Shown here in pieces: positions 4,214-46,547 of a DNA stretch of 64,000 bases. The stretch's first letter is position 1. The number at the start of each line of letters is the position of its first letter. The stretch comes from Vermamoeba vermiformis (Eukaryota), in contig JBEWZL010000106.1 in NCBI GenBank assembly GCA_045837725.1, forward strand, positions 1 to 64,000, read 5' to 3'. The notes under the pieces were generated by a model, which had not been told where the DNA came from, did not search any database, and saw only the letters and a program-made list of their open reading frames with translations. The position numbers were made by a program, and so were the translations under genes.

Positions 4214-4594
4214 TTCTAGTATTTTCTAATGCGAGTAAATTGTGAATAAATTCACTTGGCCGAGATCAAACCCTTTCGTACCAGTGGCTGTACCTTGTTG
4301 ATTCTCTTTCGCCTTGCAAGCCGCTCTAATATTATCATCACTATTATTAGAATAATCGCCGCTATTATATCGACATAAGACATTCTGGATGTGGTGTTTT
4401 TAATTTTTCGCCTTTCCACAGAGCTCTAAAGCCTTCTAATAGCGATACCTATCGTCTATATTTATGTCACTATTTAATATGTGTTGCTATTCATTATGAA
4501 TCAAACTTGTGAAATGGTCTTCGGCGGATTTCGCATCAGCTAACTACGTCAGATTTTTTTTTATGAACATAAACGCACTGAATAACACAATAGA

Positions 4595-6345
4595 ATGGTG
4601 CATGATACGGATTATCGCGAAATATTAGGCACACAAGCTCCAACTAGGACTTCCAGCGTCGGCATCCCGTTGAAGAAACCCGCGTGCCAGTACTGCAAGA
4701 AGAGAAAAGTCAGATGTGATCATAAATTACCGTGCAATCAGTGCAAGAAGAGGAAAATAACATGTGAATATGATGCACAGCCTAATACTCAAGAAGACAT
4801 CGTTTCAAAGCTGATCTCGGAGGTCGATCAACTCAAATCCGAATTACACGCACAGAGGCAAATTTCAGAATATTGGCGTAATTTATATCAAGAAAAATCA
4901 CGTATTGATAATCCTATCGTGCTTAATATAACCCGCCGACCTCTGTTTTCTGAATCAACAATTAAATTCAGCCACAACGTCATCAGCGCAGTAGAAAAAT
5001 CAAATAGGGCATTTTTGGAATTAATTTCACCTTTAATGCCTAATACGGCAAGTGAATATCGCCAAGAATATTCAGCTCTGGGATGGAACAGATTGGTTGA
5101 CAGTTTGCCCGAAGATCTCGTCGCCAATATACGTTCTATGAATATAGAATTTATGACACAGATGCTTTATCAATCGTCTATATTTGCACTAGGTAAATAA
5201 CAGAAAATATGCGAATCCAACCAAATTTCAGTTTTCCAACCCAGATCCTCCTCATTTTTGACCGTACGCATCGTGTTTATTGACTTTTCCTAATTAGGAA
5301 CCACTTTATTACAAGAAATAGAGCTTTCAAAGCACTTCAGCAAAATATCAATGTTGCTCTTGGACACGCACGAAATCCATTACGCGAGAACTCAACCAGA
5401 GACAGCGAAACAAGTGATGCTAGCGTATATCTATAGTTTATATTATCTTATGACAAATAGAGAATTTGATTCCATTTCTCCACTTTGGCGCAAAGCCGCA
5501 GACTTTTTTTCGTTCACTGAAAAATATTTTACCCCATCCACGCAAGAAGAGTACGTAATAATTATGCTATAATACTAGTATAACATTAATATTTTATAAT
5601 ATTTTAGAGTGGTTTACTCCCTGACACTCATAGATCCAGCTGAAGCTAGCGCGAGATCCGATTTTTGGATGAGACGATTGGAAACACCCGTCGTTTCGAT
5701 TAACTACAATAAGGTACTATTATAATATAGGTATATTATAGAATATTATTAACAAGTAATTGGCCTTAGCACGTCATCCAGTTGCTAAAAAACATTGCCC
5801 GAGCGATCATCTTAGTACCAAGATCCGCACAATTTTTTGCCACTCAGCCACAATACCTTAAGTAAGTTATAAATATCATATATACTCGACGGCTAAATAA
5901 CCTTTCACTGCTTAGGCATACGTTAGACAACCTGCATTTTGATTGGTTGTTGCAACAAGTCCGATACTCACCATGCTACAATTTCTACGAAATTTTGGTC
6001 CGCAGCGTGCAAAAATTAATTAATTCGTTCATGAACGATAGTTTGATCGAAGAAATTAATCAAGATGAACGAAAAATAGCGGATCTAATGAAGTCGCTGA
6101 ACAGATCACAACAAGCGTATATTTTACGAGGATATGAATATTTTCATTATGTAATTGAAAATTTGCAACGAGTTAGCGACGACTGCACGACAGATCTGAT
6201 TTTAGATCAGCTTGAAATTTTTATCAGCGCGTGTTCCTCTGAAGACTCTGAAAGCGATAATAGCGACTACACTTTTAATAGCAATGATATGTCCGAGGAT
6301 TTGTACCATTTTGTAACCTCTAATACGACTTTAAATGTCTTGTAA
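4595..6345 (+). CDS. Zn(II)2Cys6 (GAL4-like) binuclear-cluster transcription factor, multi-exon
   Basis: ACQYCKKRKVRCDHKLPCNQCKKRKITCEY matches the six-Cys cluster and is followed by a coiled coil. Downstream exons near 5297-5550, 5609-5713, 5770-5861 and 5916-6345. Confidence 0.85.
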
Positions 6346-13639: not shown

Positions 13640-14967
13640 CTGCTTCAGGCCGCATTAATTTTGCTATTTAAATATAGTGCACGAGATAATTATATTCATA
13701 CCGTACTGCGGTGTCGCTTAAGAGGCTTTGTGTATGGAACTTCGTCGGATTTCAGTTCTACCGGCAGATTTGCTATTTTATGCGCCAGTTCCGTGGTATC
13801 TTCTTGGTCTGCCATAATAACATTGCGCGGTGAATACGAGCCATCGTTAGTTGCGCTCATTGTGCTTGTGATTAATCTAGATCTTGAAATAACCCTACGA
13901 TGAATTAAATTAATGTTAAAATTGCTTCCATTAATAAAACAAGTAATAAAAATATTAATATGGTGGGTATTATATTCTACGGCTTATTAAATTGTTGCCG
14001 TACAGAAATTAAAATTGCCTGGATGTTGCCCAAACGATTTATTTCGGAGATGAATAATAATTCATAGGCCCGTTAGGTAATTAATAATATTACTGTACTA
14101 TGATATTTTTGGAATTAAATTGAATTGCAAAATTGCGATAAATAAAGTGCAATCCGTCTGCTTCACGAAGTGGTCCTTACTTTAAAGCCTGTAGTCTCCA
14201 ATAATATAATAAATTGTTCACGAATAAATACCTTTGTGTCGTGCTTATGGCCCTGCAACGACTTGTAAGCTAAACAATTTTGAATTAAATTTCCTTTCCG
14301 TTACTTGGTCAAACTCGGTCAAAATAATGCCGGCAAGGTTTATTTCCATAATAATAGATGAAGACCACCGCAATTAATAATAATGCTTCTCTTACCTATT
14401 ATAGATGCAGAATAGCTATTTTGTTGGAACTCTGACCGAGTGGTCAAGAACAAAACTCATCGAGCTTGTTTTTACGCACCCCTTCCTTGAGCAGGTACTA
14501 TTATCTCAAATTAATTAATTGGTTTATCGAGTTTACCTGACCTTACCTTCTCTTTGCGAGCTACATGTTGCGACGGCTAGATTTGTTCAACAAAATATTT
14601 TACTTTTCTACTGGCCTTATAATTTCTGTCTCCCACAATATTAATTATTTTACATTCGATTTATTATTATTTATTCTTTTTATCAGCTTCCTCAAATTGT
14701 TTTTTGACTTTTTACGGATGCAATCGTTTTTTGCCGTATTATCGCTTGGGTTTTATTCACACGAACTATACAACAACCTTTACCAATATATTAATTGAAT
14801 ATTTAACATCGCGCAAATTAGCCAAAATAGCTATTTAGCTCCATTTTACTCTAAATTCAATGAAAATGGTCCCAATTCACACGGCAAGATATTTTAAGGA
14901 ACGAGCCCGTTAAAAAAAACCTGTTAAATCATTCGTAGTAACAATACATCAACAACAAAACAGCATA

Positions 14968-16403
14968 ATGGGCAACCAATTACCTTCAACTGCTTCGCGA
15001 GCGGATGTCGTTAAATTCTACGACTCGTTGCAAAACTGGATTCCAGAAGCTAATCGCATCGATCGCGTGGAGAAGATTACTGGAGAAGAATTTATGGAAA
15101 AATATTATAAGCCTCAAAAGCCAGTCATTTTAACGAACATGATGGAAGATTGGCCTGCTTTTCAAGTAAGAGTCCTCAGATTTCAAACAATAATTTCATC
15201 CATTGGCTCTAAAATTTGCACATATCGTTACTATAGTAATGACTTAATATTCAGAATTCGCATTTTATAAATTGATAACTTTTTATTTGAATTGAATCCG
15301 AAATTTACCTATTTTCAGGATCTGATTTGAATTTAATCGTCTCATAATAATTGTATTATAGAAATGGACTACAGAGTACATCAAGTCACAAATTGGTGCA
15401 GCCGATCACACGTTTTGGTACGAAGGCAAATCAATGAAAATGAAGATCAACGATTACTTCGAATTGGCTGAGAAATACATCGCTGAGTATCGTAAAGATA
15501 ATAATATAGACCCTCAAGCTATTGGATTTCCACAATTACCTTCTCAATGGGAGAAGATCCCGTACGTTAGGTAAGCCTTTAAAAAGATCTCCTTAAAAAC
15601 GTCTCTATGCAATTGCTTATTAATTTTACACCAATAGTCTAGTTATATTAATGACATATTATTATAGACACTTTGGTCCGTTAAAGAACAAAGCGAAGCA
15701 ACTTGAAGCGGATTTGAAAGCTGATTGCATGTTCCCGAACGGGCATGACGTTAAAATGACTAACTTCTTATTCGTTGGATTACCTGGAACTAAAGTAAGT
15801 CCTATTATACAATAACAGTAACGGCACTAAGGTTGCTAATTCTTTGTTCGATCAGACCGAAATTCACTACGATGGAACCCACAACTTTGTGTCTATAGTT
15901 AAGGGCCAGAAACATATCGCTTTATTGCCTCCAGGTGACCACTCGACGATGTTCCAAGGTAAAATACAATTATTTTTTATTATTTTCAGATGCACAAGAT
16001 CAGATTCTCAGAGCGCCGAACTCGTTTTGAGAAATTTATCAAAAAGTGCTCCTAGCTATTTTGACTACCATATTAACTTCATTTTATAGGCGCTACTCCT
16101 GAGCAAATGAACGTATGGCACACCAAGACTGTTTTTCCGATGGCGGATCCACCCGAGTTGTGCTTAAACTTGGCAAAATTAGCGTCGGATCTGAAACTCA
16201 ACGAAGTGACGCCTGAAACGAAGGTGCCGGATACAGTGAAACTTATGCATCAGCACCCTATTCTAGAGCGTACTATAGGACTACAATATTCGCCAGTGCA
16301 CGAGGGCGAGATCGTGTTTTTCCCTGCTTACTGGTTCCATTACATTCATAATACTGACTTCTCGTATAGTATTACTACTCAAACATTTACGACTGATTTT
16401 TAA
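14968..16403 (+). CDS. JmjC-domain (cupin-like) 2-oxoglutarate/Fe(II) oxygenase, multi-exon
   Basis: EEFMEKYYKPQKPVILTNMMEDWPA...KWT N-terminal motif. Facial triad HYD...WFHYI and GEIVFFPAYWFH. Confidence 0.9.
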
Positions 16404-16543
16404 ATAATGAATTTGAACCAATTGTAAATATAAAAAATTCTTTAGCGTCAAATCCGCTCTATCCGGATCTTAGCCTTAGTCTGCCTTGAGCCTGAGTGAG
16501 GTGCTCTAATGCTAGCGTGAACGGATGACACTCGTATTCATCT

Positions 16544-16647
16544 TCAGACTCAAGTTCTGAAGGCCCGGTTTCGATTACCGGCGAGGGCAAAAAACGGATC
16601 TAAACGAATGATTTTGATCCGGCTCTTGTGGTGTAGTGGTAGCACAT
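16544..16647 (+). tRNA. Putative circularly permuted tRNA gene, anticodon CAA (3' part 16544-16589, 5' part 16622 to about 16647)
   Basis: 3' part reads TCAGA CTCAAGT TCTGA AGGC CCGGT TTCGATT ACCGG CGAGGGC A. Downstream 5' part reads GCTCTTG TG GTGT AGTGGTA GCAC A. GCTCTTG pairs 7/7 with CGAGGGC (two G-U pairs). T8 run at 16733-16740. Confidence 0.75.
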
Positions 16648-16732
16648 CTGGTGAATCCGAAATATTATGGGAGCCTTCTTGCCTAGATTGGCGCTCATAA
16701 TACCCATCCGTTTGTGGCTCAATCACCTTGCA

Positions 16733-16740
16733 TTTTTTTT
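16733..16740 (+). terminator. Oligo-T RNA polymerase III terminator candidate
   Basis: TTTTTTTT one nucleotide after the terminal helix of the permuted tRNA trailer. Confidence 0.55.
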
Positions 16741-16822
16741 ACGTACCTCGATCCGCAAAATAGCTTGAATTTCTGTTTTTTATTTGTTTTGTGTATTAAT
16801 TATGACTGATTGTATTAATTAT

Positions 16823-19800
16823 TTACATAGCAGATTCAGAGGCAGAAGTAGAGCTCGTAAAATCTGTATTTGATTCGTCGTCTTCGTCGGTGCTAGAATC
16901 GTTCTTGAATAACTTGCCCAAGACTGCCTTCATAACATCACGAGGCTTAGGACGGTCGCTATTAAATTTAGCAATTAGTTTCAAATTCATTGAAAAAATA
17001 ATCATTGAAATACTTACAACGCGCCGTAACCGTTGCTCGCCTTAGGAGAAGATTTCCAGAAGTATATACATTTGCCAGCACTAGTAAAGCCCAAAATACC
17101 AGGCTGGGCCATACCGTTGACATAACCATTACGTCTGAAAATATTTTTTGTTAGATCCAGATCCGTTGTCAGATGCGATGTTTCGAGGTACTTACTGAGT
17201 AATGTTGAGCATGTACTCGTCAGCAATAGTGTTCTCCGGCTCGCCAAAGACGGGGAAACTTAATCCCCAGCTCTTAGTTTGCTTAGTAATGATGCGTTGG
17301 TCTTCTGAAGTTAACGCAACCAGCATGCCTCCGCGTTCAATAATCTTCGAGAAATATTTGTTCCAACTCTTCATGTAACGCTAGAAAAACATCATTAGCA
17401 TCACATTATTATATACTATATTATGTTATACTTACTGAACAGAAACCGCACCAAGATCCACGGAACACGACCACCAAAAAGAACTTGTGGTTTGGAATTT
17501 CAGCGCGCAACCAATCAACGAGTCGCTCATAATTGGCGGGATTCTTCGTTAAAAACGCTGCATTTTGGACTAATATAGAACTCGAGCTCGTGCTCGGTCT
17601 GACACCGACTTCTGAGTCAGATCTGTCACGTGCCGATGCCTGCGCACTTTCAGACTCGTGTTCGCTCATTGACGCCATGGAGTTGCCTCGTGCAACTGCA
17701 CTTTGGATCTCGTCCACGGGAACAAACTCCGCGGCATCTTCTGCGTCACCAACGCACACTCGGCACATTTCACGGGTCTCAGGCTGTTCGGCCTTTTGTG
17801 CGAACCTAAGGCATAGTGATTAGACGCCTGCGCAAATTGAGAAAAATGGCAATTTTTTTCACGTACTTCTTGAGAATGGGAATGAACGGAGCGTTCTTGT
17901 CCTTAATGTGCTCAATGATCTGAGCGGATTTAAAGATGATAAATCCACCAATCAAGAAGAAGTCCTTGTCGATCATCACGTGATCAGGGTTTAAAGCTCT
18001 AGCTACTTCTCTTTTCTGCGCAGACTTGGTGAAATGTTGCACGTGTCCGTGGAGAGGTTGCACGTGAATGAATTGATTGGCATTTGCTTTCTAAATGTCA
18101 AAAAGATAAGAATCAGTTGACACGTGTCATATTATTTTGCCACTTACGGTGACGCCTTCGTAGAAGTGGAGGATTCTGGCTTGAGATTCCGTGACAAATG
18201 CTTTCAGTGAATCTTCTTCTACTTGTTTGCCTTGGGCAATAGCGTCAAACATTGCGGCCAATCTGTTCAAGTTGTAACGGGCAGCATCGGAAATTTGCTC
18301 TAAAGTCACGCATTAGCACACATTTTTTTAAATCGTTGTCAACCATACCATTGGTCAAGTTGTAGACGTCAGGAGCAGCGATAATTCGGCACAAGAACTT
18401 ATCGTGCATAATGACGGCCATACCCTTTCTATAATAACAAGAGATTAGTGTCATGTAGGCTTTACTATATTTGGAAAAAGTACCTGTAACGTCGCTCCTC
18501 GGACAACTGTGGGAAGTATTTTTTCATGTTATTGTCGACTCTTTGAAGCACAGAGAGCAACATTGGAGGAACAGCAGCCTTGTGCTTCATTAGAGTGGAG
18601 GTCAGAGTCGTCGCGAACTTGATCAACTTCTTGGAATTCTTCGCATTTAGTTTCTCTTCTTGCGTTCGCTTCTTCCTATTGCTGATCATCGTAGAGATCT
18701 GCAAAGATGATGATCGTTAGTACGATGACGTTTGACACGTGTCAAAGTGTCATTCGTGAACTCACCTCCAATGGCTTCGGGTACTTCAAGATATCGACAA
18801 AAACGTCCGACAACAATTTTTGCATGTATTCACCGCAAACCAACACGATGAACCGCAAAATGATCTGAGTAGTGATTCTGTTATCGTTGAACAACAAATC
18901 ATAGCTTTGAACATCTTCACCGGGCGTCAAAACCGAGTAAAGTTTGTCGAACTGTTGCTTTGTCGACTCTGGTGTATTATTAGTAATGATCGGTATATGA
19001 AGATATTTATAGGAGACTTACCCAACGACTCGAACTCTGCATCTACAGCCCAGTTTAATAAATCGAGTAATTTGCCTTCGCTGTGGGCCACTCGCAAGAA
19101 CGCATCCACAACGGTTGTGTCGACACGAGATCCCATTCCGGAGTTCAAGAACAACGCATTGACGAATCCAGGCTCGGACATCAATTTAATTAAGACTTCA
19201 CGACCAATAATTGACTCGGTCATTTGCTTGTACTTCGTACTCTAAGAAAAAAAATAATCAAATTTAGTTTTTTCGTTCACTGAAAAAAATAACATTTGCG
19301 ACGAACCTTTTTAACGCGTTTAGCTCTTCTTTCGTAGTACTTGACATTAGGCTTCCAATTATATACATCAATTTGGTCATGAGCTCGTTCTTTTTCGACG
19401 TTAACATGAGCGATGAAAATTTGACCGTCCTCGCTTAATAAGAACTTGTGTTTTTTGCCTCTAAAACTCTTCTTTTTCAACGGAGTAAATCTCTCGTCCA
19501 ATGTAACATCCCAAATGTTCATTTCTATAAAAGGAAATTTTAATCAGTACACGATCTCGAGCGGCGCCGGTTGCCGAGAAAACAATTCTGAAATATTGCG
19601 GATAATGCTTAAATAAATACTTACTATCTTGAACTAATACGAATAAATATTCTCCGACCATTCCGAGCCAGTTGACACGTGTTTCAATCAGATCTTGGAT
19701 GCTCTTTCTGTGGGAACCAACAGAGGAAATATTATGGAACGGTTGGCTCTTAGTCTTCTTAGTCATATCATATACATCGACTAGACCTCTAATACTGCCA

Positions 19801-21816: not shown

Positions 21817-24800
21817 CTACTTCATAGTAATGCGTTGACGCTTAACACTCGATGAAGGCACGAGATCAATATCGTCATCCAGCTTTCGCTTTGATCCAAC
21901 AGCTGCACTACTTGTCGTAGATGTCGATCCAGATCCGCCGTTGCGAACTTGCAGTGCTCGTTCAGCGAGCGTCAAGCGCTTGTTGGTGGTTGGTGCAACT
22001 GGCTTAGATTTCACTTGAACACGTGGAGTATTGGCGACTTCGTTGTGTTTCAGCGTTTGCAGTGGCTTGCGAACTGAATTCGCGACTTTAGAAACAGACT
22101 GCAGCGATGGCTTTGTGACTGTTGGTGGCGGCATCAACATTGCAGGTGTCATCTTCGGAGACTCCTCCGAAGTGTCATTAAGTGTCAACATGGTTTGGTT
22201 CAGATCTTCATAGGCTGAATCATCTGTAGGCGCGCAACTCGATGAAGATAATGGTGCGCTAATAGTATTCGTGCTGGTCTTCAATGAGTTGCCCGAATTT
22301 GACAGCAGTGAGTTCACATCCAGTTGGCCAGATCTGTACTTAAACAACTCCAAGCCCATATTATACATCGCTGTTACTATCAACTTATGCTCTCGTTGAA
22401 GAATCTCGTGCTCTTCTTTAGCTTGCATAGCTTCTTGTTGCAATTTGGAAAACTCGTCGTTATTTACAGCGTTCTCGAGTTCTTCCTCCAACTTTGCTAT
22501 TTTTTCTTTCAAATTGTTAATTTCAATTTCAAGGCATCCAATTTTGTTCTATAATACAACGCCATTAATACAGATCCTATTATAACACCTATTGTTCACG
22601 TACCGTCTTTTCTTGCAACTGTTGGTTCAATTCTTCTTGTTCCTCTTTCAATTTTTCCGCTTCTCTTTGTGCCTGTCGCTTTTGAACTTCATTTTCAGCA
22701 GCCTCGCCTATTAAATAATTAGTATGATACTCACTGAATAGTGTCCTTTATGTACGTACTTGTGGAAGTCTTCAACTTCAATGCAAAGTCCTGTAACTTC
22801 GTCTTGAATTGTTCTTGCACGGACTGCAATGAATTCTCCGTCTTTTTCAACTTCTCTTCGACTTTGCTGTACTTGATCTTTGCTTCGGTCAACTCGCTTT
22901 GCAACTCATAGATCTACGTATACAAGCGTTAACATCAAGCTGCCTTAATGAACAATCGTTAATATATGATCGTACCTTGGCTTGGCTCTCGTGCAAGTTA
23001 GCGTTCAACTGCTTCGTTGAATCTTCAAAATCTTTCACGCGCTTGTTGAGCAAGTTGTTTTCCTATTAAACAGTTATTATTAACACGATCCTTTATATTA
23101 TATCACTATTGCGTACTTGTTGATACTTCTGGTTCAACAACATCGTCGTGTCAAGTTTGTCCTCGAGAGCGTTGACTTGAGCGGTCTGATCCACAGTCAT
23201 GCCACGAGTGGACGGTGATTTGAACATGTCATGCTTCACTACTCGTTCCTTACTACAATAACATTGGTTAGAATTAACTGCTTTAGCAGAACGATGTAAG
23301 TTTGACATGTCAAAAGTGACACGTGTAAAATGGTAAATTGTCGTGTCAAAAATTACGTACGTCGTGGGTGTCATAAGAGCACGACTCAATATCTCAGGAG
23401 AAGGTGTCGGTGCAACAGTTGTGATGATACTAACGGTGCTCTTTTGTGGCGTGGTCGCGAGCTGTGCCTTCGCCGAGAGCAATGCGATCTGTTCTTGTTG
23501 TTGCGAATTTTCTTCTTTCAAAATTTCCAATTGTTCCTACAAGTAACAATGTTAATATTTGTACCATATAGATAGCTATTGAAAACATTATATAACCTCG
23601 CGTCCAAAAAACAAGATCCGTTACAATACCTTAAGTTGAGTAATCTCCAAGTCCTTTTCGTTTGTAGCCAGTTCCAGTTTGCTCGATTTTTCGGATACTT
23701 CCAAGAATTGTTGCTTATAATTTTCAACTTTTGATTCTAAGCGGGCAATTGTACGCTTTGAATTCTCTTCGATATCAACTTTCTGTTGGATCAGCTTGGT
23801 GTTTTGTTCTTCGAGGGATTTCGATTGATTTTTCATGTCTTGGAATAACTCTAGCTTAATGTTGACTTTTTTCAACTGTTCTTCCAGCAGATCCGCCTTG
23901 CGAGCTTTTTCTTGTAAGATCTCCATCTCATCGCGCATTTCTCTTGATTTAAATACAAACTTCGATAACTCATCCACCTGATAACCATTATGTTAGCTTG
24001 CGCGTCTTCAAAAGGTATTGGTGCGTTAGATCCGCTGCTACTGACCTCTCGTTTCAATTTCAAAATATTTCGTTCTTTCTCCAATAATTTTGCTCGAAGC
24101 TCTTCATTTTCTTCAGATATCCTAACAAAATAATATTAATGATCAAATAGCCCAAAAAGCTAACAATTGGTTCGTACAAGATCCGTTACAAAAAAAACGA
24201 AATCAATTAAAAATCGGCAATAGGCATTACAGGCAGAGTTCTTTGCCACTGTAGTATTTAATGACTAAAAGCAAAAAAGAAAAGAGCACAACACCGCCGA
24301 TTCCCAGGTAGTCTCCTACCCCAGTACTAAGAAGGCCTGAACAAGCTTAACTTCGCTGATCGGACGGGAAGCGGTGCATTCTTGTTAGTGTGGTCGTGCC
24401 CGAGACGCTTCGCAACATCGTGTTCGGGTCACTACTTGCGTAACAAAAAAAAACAACCCACATCCATATCTCGAAGCGAATAATTTGGAAATCGGTTCAA
24501 TAAGCCAAAATATCTGCTAATTTCAATCAATAGGGATAAATCGACTCACCTAGAGTTATTAAGGTTGATTGGGCTTTGAACAATCTCTTTTTGTTTGAGC
24601 ATCTGTTCGAGAGTCGCGATCCGTTCTAATAATGCTGATTCACGAGCACTAGCATCTTCAATCTTTTGTTCCATCTGTTGAAAGGCTTCTAAAGCAAGGT
24701 CTTTCTGGACTTCCAAGCGCGAAGTGTAATCAGCGAATGAATCTACAATATCGCTCTTCAACTCGCTATTCTCTCGCCTTAATTCTTCAATTCTATCGTC

Positions 24801-46451: not shown

Positions 46452-46547
46452 GACAACATGGCCGAGTGGTCTAAGGCGGCAGACTTGAAAGACCTTCGAG
46501 TTATCTGCTGGGGTCTCCCCGCGCAGGTTCAAACCCTGCTGTTGTCG
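46452..46547 (+). tRNA. tRNA-Ser(UGA) with 13-nt canonical intron (46490-46502)
   Basis: GACAACA/TGTTGTC acceptor stem, GCAGA/TCTGC anticodon stem, TGA at 46486-46488, long variable arm GGGG TCT CCCC, T loop TTCAAAC, G73. Confidence 0.95.

What the first reader, a model, noticed from the sequence alone, without database searches (positions are those of the whole stretch)
16470..16740. Extensively base-paired leader/trailer scaffold around the permuted tRNA
Seen: the flanks pair far beyond a simple splice motif. The helices are 16532-16542 with 16650-16660, 16516-16527 with 16705-16716 (12 bp), and terminal 16496-16503 with 16724-16731 just before T8. There is a side hairpin TATTATG/CATAATA (16663-16702), and TTGAGCC in the leader can pair with GGCTCAA in the trailer as a pseudoknot. 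Inference: this could be a split structured intron, a ribozyme-like processing module, or a larger ncRNA displaying a permuted tRNA module. The last would be loosely analogous to bacterial YrlA or two-piece tmRNA, although their hallmark motifs are absent.
Basis: partly seen in the sequence, partly recalled or inferred. Interest (0 to 1): 0.8.

Follow-up and report, generated by a model that had tools for sequence, protein, structure and literature searches.

The report
Conserved RNA rod around permuted tRNA
A gene of about 270 bases in an unidentified eukaryote encodes a back-to-front tRNA-shaped core clamped by a long base-paired stalk that is conserved in a distant relative, so the stalk is functional, though whether it is cut away to free a tRNA or kept as part of a larger RNA is still open.

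Summary
On the + strand, 16464-16732 folds as one unit. It starts 25 nt after a TATA-like box and ends at a T8. Its parts are a 5' hairpin, four leader-trailer helices (T1, T2, T3, R1), a 40-nt side hairpin, and a circularly permuted class-I tRNA-like cloverleaf (3' part, 32-nt spacer, 5' part).

Leader-trailer pairing is far beyond chance (z -5.6, 0 of 200 shuffles). The one full homologue found (L001, a metagenome contig) folds the same way on its own (z -5.2). It keeps 95% of the cells of the 33 scaffold pairs paired, with 6 pairs changed on both sides.

The proposed pseudoknot is not conserved. Rfam gives no ribozyme, Y RNA, tmRNA or other family match.

The stalk leaves the cloverleaf between nt 26 and 27, a junction not among those listed for known permuted tRNA genes. 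No canonical bulge-helix-bulge exists there.

The tRNA module is also atypical:
- a short variable loop with a CAA anticodon
- U53-A61
- a non-conserved discriminator base and a fast-changing acceptor stem

My best reading (about 0.4) is a processing clamp of an unusual permuted pre-tRNA. A stable tRNA-mimic RNA (about 0.33) is nearly as likely. I rate it a new variant of a known kind.

The parts
16431..16439 (+). TATA-like box (TATAAAAAA), 25 nt upstream of the first conserved base.
   Evidence: Sequence. In a roughly 96%-identical aquifer-metagenome contig (X4) the likeness starts exactly at 16464, with 10 unlike letters before it. Use as a promoter is inferred.
16464..16495 (+). Inferred 5' end and 5' hairpin (16470-73/16492-95 and 16475-79/16486-90).
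   Evidence: MFE. The X4 variant G16494A turns a U.G pair into U-A. L001 has a longer 5' hairpin at the same place.
16496..16503 (+). T1, 5' strand of the terminal helix. Pairs with 16724-16731.
   Evidence: The inner 5 bp are kept in L001, with one pair changed on both sides (16499/16728, A-U to G-C). The 2 pairs next to the outermost are broken in L001.
16504..16510 (+). Leader side of the T1/T2 internal loop (CUCUAAU). The trailer side is 16719-16723 (UCAAU). Both sides are largely conserved in sequence.
   Evidence: Alignment. Function unknown.
16511..16514 (+). T2, a 4-bp helix with 16715-16718, followed by the 3-nt bulge 16515-16517.
   Evidence: 16512/16717 changes from C-G to U-A, and 16513/16716 from U.G to C-G.
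16518..16527 (+). T3, 5' strand of the 10-bp long-range helix with 16705-16714.
   Evidence: 3 pairs changed on both sides (16522/16710, 16525/16707, 16526/16706) and 1 gap in L001.
16532..16542 (+). R1, leader strand of the helix that abuts the cloverleaf. Pairs with 16650-16660.
   Evidence: It is a perfect 11 bp in L001. 16532/16660 changes from U-A to G-C, and the window's U.C mismatch is G-C in L001. Seven of the inner 8 bp are identical in sequence in both RNAs, and the eighth (16541/16651) changes from U.G to U-A.
16544..16589 (+). 3' part of the tRNA-like module:
- anticodon arm 16544-16560 (loop CUCAAGU)
- variable loop 16561-64
- T arm 16565-81
- acceptor 3' strand 16582-88
- position 73 at 16589
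   Evidence: ARAGORN on the halves joined by coordinates in a script. The same result was obtained for L001. 16544-16586 is identical to L001 except at 16545.
16590..16621 (+). Spacer closing the acceptor stem (A-rich, with own hairpin 16595-600/16616-21 and one T4).
   Evidence: The spacer is only 11 nt in L001 and A-rich with different letters in the X21 relative. So length and sequence are not conserved.
16622..16646 (+). 5' part of the tRNA-like module: acceptor 5' strand 16622-28, U8 G9, D arm 16631-45, and A26.
   Evidence: The acceptor stem covaries (16587/16623, G-C to A-U). 16628-16650 is identical in L001.
16647..16649 (+). UCU bulge between A26 and helix R1, the point where the stalk leaves the cloverleaf.
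   Evidence: MFE. Identical in L001.
16650..16660 (+). R1, trailer strand.
   Evidence: As for 16532-16542. The variants G16651A and loss of C16657 are seen in both X4 and X21.
16663..16702 (+). Side hairpin of about 40 nt at the three-way junction with T3 and R1.
   Evidence: In the X21 relative, U16665C together with A16700G keeps the pair, and G16670A turns G.U into A-U. L001 has an unalignable hairpin of the same size at the same place.
16705..16731 (+). Trailer strands of T3 (16705-14), T2 (16715-18) and T1 (16724-31), plus the conserved loop 16719-23.
16733..16740 (+). T8, a terminator of the RNA polymerase III type directly after T1.
   Evidence: L001 also has a T8 directly after its T1. 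In X21, 4 reads carry an A-run after 16732.

Best explanation
The locus encodes one structured transcript of about 270 nt. It runs from a TATA-like box at about -25 to a T8, which is the layout of an RNA polymerase III gene with an upstream promoter.

At its centre is a complete but circularly permuted tRNA-shaped module. The anticodon arm, T arm and 3' acceptor strand come first. Next comes a spacer that closes the acceptor stem. The 5' acceptor strand and D arm follow.

The 5' leader and 3' trailer zip together into a conserved stalk (R1, T3, T2, T1 and a side hairpin). The stalk leaves the cloverleaf between nt 26 and 27.

I take the stalk to be a built-in clamp. It plays the role an intron helix or the complementary leaders of split tRNAs play. 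It holds the two transcript ends in register so that the stalk can be excised and nt 26 ligated to nt 27, giving a circular intermediate. RNase P and tRNase Z then open the acceptor stem at 16622 and 16589, giving a 74-nt tRNA with anticodon CAA.

Shown:
- the architecture
- its statistical excess over chance
- its conservation with compensatory changes
- the tRNA consensus nucleotides
- the conserved T8

Inferred:
- the polymerase
- every cleavage and ligation step
- aminoacylation
For: - The gene layout matches published permuted tRNA genes: the 3' half lies upstream of the 5' half, with a TATA-like box upstream and a T stretch downstream (review PMC3978253, sections 4-5 read; window sequence).
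- ARAGORN accepts the halves joined by coordinates as a 74-nt tRNA in both the window and L001.
- The module has the consensus elements the review lists for such exons: U8, G15:C48, G18G19, U33 and U54U55C56. It also has a 7-bp acceptor stem followed by one unpaired base in both homologues.
- The 7-nt loop CUCAAGU (Y32, U33, R37) and its stem are identical in two RNAs whose scaffolds differ at about a third of positions.
- R1's inner 8 bp next to the putative junction are identical in sequence at 7 pairs (one changes U.G to U-A), while the outer stalk only covaries. That is what a recognition site for a processing enzyme would look like.
- The clamp is real: interaction z -5.6 and -4.1 with 0 of 200 shuffles each; 33 pairs with 95.4% of cells paired; 6 pairs changed on both sides, against 0-1 in six slid controls.
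Against: - There is no canonical bulge-helix-bulge at any of the 3 junctions that would restore the cloverleaf (3-5 of 12 pairs). The best of 896 placements scanned scores 9 of 12.
- The only half-motif (5-bp helix, 3-nt bulge 16541-43, 4-bp helix) would give an anticodon loop without U33.
- Junction 26/27 is not among the types listed for the 34 known genes: 15/16, 20/21, 37/38, 50/51, 59/60.
- The body has a 4-nt variable loop, yet the anticodon CAA is a leucine anticodon. Leucine tRNAs are class II with a long variable arm.
- Pair 53-61 is U-A, not G-C. The near-invariance of G53-C61 is recalled, not taken from a call.
- Position 73 is A in the window and C in L001.
- The 5' hairpin, the side hairpin and a sequence-conserved internal loop are more than a clamp needs.
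- No read joins 16646 to 16544 in X21 (no joints reported among 41 laid reads). Poly(A) RNA-seq would not capture a mature tRNA, so this is weak.
Confidence: 0.4

Rival explanations
1. A stable non-coding RNA of about 270 nt that is not matured into a tRNA. The closed, permuted tRNA-shaped module is a mimic displayed on the conserved stalk, as in bacterial YrlA. The stalk, its conserved internal loop and the hairpins bind protein partners. The tRNA elbow and anticodon-like arm recruit a tRNA-binding factor.
For: - No splice motif exists at the stalk base.
- The stalk, 5' hairpin and side hairpin are conserved in structure. The T1/T2 internal loop is conserved in sequence.
- The acceptor stem and its closing loop vary freely: spacer 32 nt against 11 nt, stem changed in all three homologues, and position 73 A against C. 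The D and T arms are invariant. This matches the pattern reported for YrlA (passages of 10.1101/312249).
- The tRNA is atypical for translation (class I body with CAA, U53-A61).
- Transcripts colinear with the genome, including spacer and trailer, are seen in a relative's RNA-seq. Part of the 41 laid reads span 16571-16740.
- A 151-nt contig from a wastewater library covers 16568-16716, while the flanks have no depth.
Against: - The anticodon loop is perfectly canonical and invariant, and the acceptor stem is exactly 7 bp with one unpaired base. A mimic need not keep these, and YrlA lacks an anticodon loop.
- No Rfam Y RNA, YrlA or other family matched.
- The tool itself flags the wastewater library as probably DNA, and its contig may be one amplified fragment.
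- Poly(A) RNA-seq would show precursors in either case.
Confidence: 0.33
2. A two-piece tRNA-like RNA. RNase P and tRNase Z remove only the spacer. The leader plus 3' part (with CCA added) and the 5' part plus trailer stay held together by the acceptor stem and the stalk, as in two-piece tmRNA.
For: - The 7-bp acceptor stem with an unpaired base and an A-rich, unconserved spacer is a plausible RNase P/Z substrate in both homologues.
- About 33 stalk pairs would keep the two pieces together.
- No ligation motif is needed. M. smegmatis YrlA is opened this way (passage).
Against: - ARAGORN, which searches for tmRNA, reports none.
- There is no G3.U70: the window has U3.G70 and L001 has C3-G70.
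- I looked for no tag reading frame.
- Reads in X21 run through the spacer, though these may be precursors.
Confidence: 0.15
3. A self-processing element: the flanks form a ribozyme or a split self-splicing intron that frees the tRNA.
For: A large conserved structure surrounds the module. The window alone allows a 7-bp pseudoknot.
Against: - cmscan against all 4227 Rfam families found only two chance-level hits in 16300-16900: 15.1 bits against a cut-off of 44, and 13.2 against 65.
- The pseudoknot is not conserved (238 of 500 shuffles as good in L001).
- The stalk is a simple rod with few conserved unpaired bases.
Confidence: 0.04
4. A decaying rearranged tRNA pseudogene or a chance fold with no function.
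For: The window's whole-molecule z-score is only -2.0 to -2.3. It is a single copy in the window.
Against: - A homologue with a different spacer, different flanks and a scaffold differing at about a third of positions keeps every helix, with 6 stalk pairs and 1 acceptor pair changed on both sides.
- Likeness in X4 begins sharply at 16464.
- T8 is kept at the same place.
Confidence: 0.03

Closest known systems
Circularly permuted tRNA genes of Cyanidioschyzon merolae, prasinophyte green algae, the Bigelowiella natans nucleomorph and Thermofilum pendens (Soma 2014 review, PMC3978253; sections 4, 5 and 8 read).
   Same: - The 3' half lies upstream of the 5' half.
- An intervening sequence closes the acceptor stem. 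Its length (32 and 11 nt) is within the published 1-74 nt.
- There is a TATA-like box upstream and a T stretch downstream.
- Leader and trailer pair with each other.
- The exons carry the tRNA consensus nucleotides.
   Different: - The junction is at 26/27, not at 15/16, 20/21, 37/38, 50/51 or 59/60.
- No canonical or usable relaxed BHB is present.
- Leader and trailer are about 80 and 86 nt long. They form four covarying helices plus two hairpins.
- The tRNA is class I with a leucine anticodon and has U53-A61.
- The host shows no sign of being an alga in this window, but its taxon is unresolved.
YrlA, the bacterial Y-RNA-like tRNA mimic (10.1101/312249 and PMC4201824; passages of the first read, listing only for the second).
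   Same: - It is a permuted tRNA-like module with the acceptor stem closed by a loop.
- The 5' and 3' ends form the stem that leaves the module.
- The D and T arms are conserved while the acceptor stem varies.
   Different: - This is a eukaryotic RNA.
- A full anticodon arm is present in addition to the exit stem.
- There is no Rfam Y RNA or YrlA match.
- No recognisable Ro-binding helix was identified, and Ro60 could not be looked for because no genome is held.
Two-piece (permuted) tmRNA.
   Same: The gene is circularly permuted around the acceptor stem, and the two parts could stay paired after the spacer is removed.
   Different: - ARAGORN finds no tmRNA.
- There is no G3.U70, no tag frame was sought or seen, and no pseudoknots are conserved.
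- The module has a D stem and an anticodon arm, which tmRNA lacks (the tmRNA features are recalled).
Split tRNAs of Nanoarchaeum equitans, whose halves are joined after pairing of complementary flanks. The review mentions their BHB-dependent joining. The complementary-flank detail is recalled.
   Same: A long helix between sequences flanking the two tRNA parts brings them into register.
   Different: Here both parts lie on one transcript in permuted order. The stalk has branches and conserved loops, and no BHB adjoins it.

Membership tests
Circularly permuted tRNA gene | The 3' half is encoded upstream of the 5' half, joined through an intervening sequence at the acceptor ends. | tested here: met
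   The same holds in L001.
Circularly permuted tRNA gene | An upstream TATA-like box, a downstream T stretch, and no terminator in the spacer. | tested here: met
   TATAAAAAA lies at 16431-39 and T8 at 16733-40. L001 also has a T8. The window's spacer has one T4 (16610-13), which is absent from L001 and from the X21 relative.
Circularly permuted tRNA gene | Leader and trailer form a BHB motif (strict or relaxed) at the junction. | tested here: not met
   the junctions that restore the cloverleaf score 3-5 of 12 pairs, and the best of 896 placements scores 9 of 12. The one half-motif would yield a loop without U33.
Circularly permuted tRNA gene | The junction is at one of the described positions (15/16, 20/21, 37/38, 50/51, 59/60). 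| tested here: not met
   The stalk leaves between 26 and 27.
Circularly permuted tRNA gene | A circular intermediate and a mature aminoacylated tRNA. | not testable with these tools
   No joints were reported among 41 laid reads of a poly(A) RNA-seq run from a diverged relative. That library would not capture tRNA.
Canonical cytosolic elongator tRNA | Consensus nucleotides U8, R15:Y48, G18G19, U33 and U54U55C56, plus G53-C61 and a class that fits the anticodon. | tested here: inconclusive
   The first five are present (list). Pair 53-61 is U-A. The variable loop has 4 nt with a CAA (leucine) anticodon, although leucine tRNAs are class II. Position 73 is A in the window and C in L001.
Y RNA / YrlA | A match to the family model and a Ro60-binding helix. 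| tested here: not met
   cmscan at E up to 10 over 16300-16900 gives no Y RNA or YrlA hit. The presence of Ro60 is untestable because no genome is held.
tmRNA (one- or two-piece) | A tRNA-Ala-like acceptor with G3.U70, a tag reading frame, and detection by ARAGORN or Rfam. | tested here: not met
   ARAGORN reports 0 genes. Rfam gives none. Pair 3-70 is U.G in the window and C-G in L001.
Self-cleaving ribozymes / group I introns | A match to a curated covariance model. | tested here: not met

The most novel reading that the evidence does not exclude
The RNA is not a tRNA precursor. It is a stable eukaryotic ribonucleoprotein RNA of a class not yet described. A complete, circularly permuted tRNA mimic, either closed or opened into two paired pieces, is displayed on a conserved branched stalk. 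It would be a eukaryotic counterpart of bacterial YrlA or two-piece tmRNA, and its invariant leucine-type anticodon arm and tRNA elbow would recruit a tRNA-binding factor.
Probability: 0.45. Interest if true: 0.85.

Novelty: new variant of a known kind. Interest (0 to 1): 0.7.

Why it matters
According to the 2014 review (34 genes) and the passages I read of a 2025 preprint and a 2026 review, permuted tRNA genes are known only from a few algae and one archaeon. In all of them a bulge-helix-bulge at a handful of positions explains how the ends are joined.

This locus shows a conserved permuted tRNA module whose ends are held by a long, branched, covarying stalk at a new position and without that motif.

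- If it matures into a tRNA, an unknown recognition mode of the splicing machinery, or another enzyme, is implied. A short-armed tRNA with a leucine anticodon would also need explaining.
- If it does not mature, it is a new kind of eukaryotic tRNA-mimic RNA.

A northern blot and tRNA-seq would decide between the two.

Tried and rejected
**Alternative registers**
- I tried placing the junction at 37/38. Here 16647-51 pairs with 16544-48 as the anticodon stem, 16541-43 is a 3-nt bulge and 16652-55/16537-40 is a 4-bp helix. This looks like the canonical eukaryotic intron geometry, but it gives the loop UGAAUCU without U33 and a poor variable arm. Rejected.
- I tried R1 as the anticodon stem, with the loop drawn from 16655-60. 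The loop bases are fully paired in L001, position 37 would be C there, and C16657 is missing in X4 and X21. Rejected.

**More homologues**
- One metagenome scan found 1 locus.
- Two patterns scanned in the viral contigs and in the prokaryote genome contigs found 0.
- Earlier notes of this scan held nothing for this genome or sequence. A word search returned four unrelated notes.
- No second copy lies in the window. None of 13 other B-box-like sites has a full T stem.

**Taxon**
- No genome is held.
- Pfam shows Kelch-kinase, F-box/LRR, JmjC and a Zn2Cys6 domain.
- The atlas and homologue look-ups gave no usable taxon.

X5 and X7-X20 hold small shares of the sampled words.

**A possible relaxed BHB inside the stalk**
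T3, the 3-nt bulge 16515-17, the 4-bp T2 and the internal loop could be read this way. The second bulge is not clean and not conserved. I kept it only as a note.

Full report
**What is there**

The window is eukaryotic:
- No prokaryote genome is held for it.
- ORFs carry Kelch-kinase, F-box/LRR, JmjC and Zn2Cys6 domains.
- GC content is about 38%.
- A lone 5S rRNA gene and an ordinary class II tRNA-Ser(UGA) with a 37/38 intron lie elsewhere in the window.
- I could not place the organism further.

Around the finding, the + strand reads as follows:
- A TATA-like box at 16431-39.
- A unit that starts near 16464.
- A T8 at 16733-40.

ARAGORN and Rfam see no tRNA here. When 16622-16646 and 16544-16589 are joined by coordinates in a script, ARAGORN accepts them as a 74-nt cloverleaf with anticodon CAA. 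The gene is therefore circularly permuted. The order is: anticodon arm, variable loop, T arm and 3' acceptor strand; then a 32-nt spacer; then the 5' acceptor strand and D arm.

**The observation**

I name them:
- T1: 16496-503/16724-31
- T2: 16511-14/16715-18
- T3: 16518-27/16705-14
- R1: 16532-42/16650-60
- the side hairpin: 16663-702

There is also a 5' hairpin at 16470-95.

The statistics are as follows:
- The whole-molecule z-score is modest: -2.29 with 3 of 200 shuffles as good, and -2.00 with 4 of 200.
- The minus strand is at chance level: -0.99 with 29 of 200.
- The test that addresses the claim directly is co-folding the leader with the trailer. It gains -20.6 kcal/mol against -5.4 +/- 2.7 for shuffles (z -5.6, 0 of 200).

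**Conservation**

One pattern scan of the metagenome contigs found a single locus, L001. It has the same order of parts but differs in several ways:
- an 11-nt spacer
- a different 5' hairpin
- an unalignable side hairpin of the same size
- a T8 at the same place
- different neighbouring genes

L001 folds independently into the same architecture (z -5.22, 0 of 200).

On the alignment, the 33 stalk pairs behave as follows:
- 95.4% of cells are paired.
- 6 pairs are changed on both sides (1 in T1, 1 in T2, 3 in T3, 1 in R1).
- Six slid controls give 0, 0, 0, 0, 1 and 1 such pairs and 34-45% of cells paired.
- 10 of 500 column shuffles reach 6.
- Against the structure, two T1 pairs next to the outermost pair are broken in L001, and one T3 position is a gap there.

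The acceptor stem also covaries. Pair 2-71 changes from C-G to U-A, and two pairs change from G.U to G-C.

Laid reads add partial homologues:
- An aquifer-metagenome contig (X4) covers 16464-16707 with 8 differences and 2 gaps. Its likeness begins exactly at 16464.
- Poly(A) RNA-seq reads of a diverged relative (X21) were laid. There were 41 reads and none was 99% alike.
- In X21, U16665C together with A16700G keeps a side-hairpin pair.
- In X21, G16670A turns G.U into A-U.
- In X21, two acceptor-stem changes keep pairing.

In the window it scores -11.6 kcal/mol, with 20 of 500 shuffles as good. In L001 it is no better than shuffles (238 of 500).

**What kind of thing it is**

The layout matches published permuted tRNA genes in three respects (PMC3978253, sections 4, 5 and 8): the order of the halves, the TATA-like box and the T stretch.

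Three things set it apart.

1. The exit point. The stalk leaves the cloverleaf between nt 26 and 27. The 34 listed genes have junctions at 15/16, 20/21, 37/38, 50/51 or 59/60.
2. The missing splice motif. A scan of 896 placements found no canonical bulge-helix-bulge. The best scored 9 of 12 pairs. The three junctions that would restore the cloverleaf scored 3-5 of 12. The one half-motif sits in an alternative register and would give a loop without U33.
3. The unusual tRNA.
   - It has all the consensus nucleotides that the review lists.
   - It also has an invariant canonical loop, CUCAAGU.
   - Its body is short-armed (class I) although the anticodon is a leucine one.
   - Pair 53-61 is U-A.
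   - Position 73 is A in the window and C in L001.
   - The acceptor stem differs in each of the three homologues.

The near-invariance of G53-C61 and the role of A73 in leucine identity are recalled, not taken from a call.

**Mechanism**

I commit, at about 0.4, to a processing clamp. In this reading:
- The stalk holds the transcript's two ends in register at the 26/27 hinge.
- The stalk is excised and the ends are ligated.
- RNase P and tRNase Z then open the 7-bp acceptor stem.

The points in favour are:
- the canonical, invariant anticodon loop
- the exact 7-bp acceptor stem with one unpaired base in both homologues
- the near-invariant inner 8 bp of R1 next to the putative cut sites
- precedent from known permuted tRNA genes

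None of the cleavage, ligation or charging steps is shown.

Nearly as likely (about 0.33) is a stable tRNA-mimic RNA. Its variable closed acceptor stem, conserved D and T arms and exit stem formed by the two ends parallel what is reported for YrlA (passages of 10.1101/312249). The conserved hairpins and the internal loop are more than a clamp needs.

A two-piece form, opened only at the spacer, gets about 0.15. A ribozyme and a pseudogene are disfavoured.

Expression data do not decide:
- X21 reads are colinear with the genome from about 16565 to 16740.
- Four X21 reads carry an A-run after 16732.
- No joints were reported.
- The leader had no laid reads. It may simply be too diverged to lay.
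- A 151-nt contig from a wastewater library covers 16568-16716, but the tool flags that library as probably DNA.

**Literature**

I ran four searches:
- permuted tRNA, circular, BHB
- permuted tRNA with amoeba or protist terms
- permuted tRNA with fungi or non-canonical intron terms
- tRNA-like domain, circularly permuted, YrlA

None listed a paper describing a 26/27 junction or a long conserved leader-trailer stalk.

What I read of each paper:
- Sections 4, 5 and 8 of the 2014 review.
- Passages of the 2026 EMBO J review.
- Passages of the Auxenochlorella preprint.
- Passages of the YrlA structure preprint.
- Soma 2007 and Maruyama 2010 were not read.
- Supplements were closed.

**Verdict**

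The scaffold is real and conserved. The pseudoknot and ribozyme ideas fall. What remains is either an unusual permuted pre-tRNA or a new tRNA-mimic RNA. I rate it a new variant of a known kind, with interest 0.7.

Noticed in passing
window 46452-46547 (+): An ordinary class II tRNA-Ser(UGA) gene with a roughly 13-nt intron at 37/38 and a T-rich tail. This organism's other tRNA gene in the window is conventional.
   Followed up: partly
window 24283-24401 (-): A lone 5S rRNA gene (103 bits) followed by T runs. It is not part of an rDNA unit.
   Followed up: no
window 16511-16517 with 16715-16723: Inside the stalk, the 4-bp helix T2 is flanked by a 3-nt bulge (16515-17) on one strand. On the other side lies an internal loop that is largely conserved in sequence and roughly symmetric, with a CUC..AAU-type motif on both strands. 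It loosely recalls a relaxed bulge-helix-loop. Cutting there would circularise a 204-nt piece rather than a tRNA.
   Followed up: partly
window 16541-16543 and 16647-16649: The same AUCU occurs at the end of the leader and at the start of the trailer. As a result the UCU bulge can sit on either strand, giving two competing registers at the stalk base. Both registers are kept in L001.
   Followed up: partly
window 16732/16733, reads of run X21: Four reads of a relative's poly(A) RNA-seq continue after 16732 with an A-run (median loose length 104). So some transcripts are polyadenylated exactly where the T8 begins. Five reads show an A-run of at least 12 within the spacer of that relative.
   Followed up: no
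window 14914-16403 (+): A JmjC/cupin-8 gene in several short exons ends 60 nt upstream of the RNA unit. A gene on the minus strand ends about 80 nt downstream (16823-17041). The RNA therefore sits in a short intergenic gap.
   Followed up: no
L001 2-1240 (+): In the homologous contig, the RNA is convergent with an ABC-F type ATPase gene. This differs from the window's neighbours, so the RNA is conserved without conserved synteny.
   Followed up: no
window 4586-5197 (+): An ORF with a fungal-type Zn2Cys6 binuclear cluster domain (E 2.6e-08). It is a weak hint about the host lineage.
   Followed up: no
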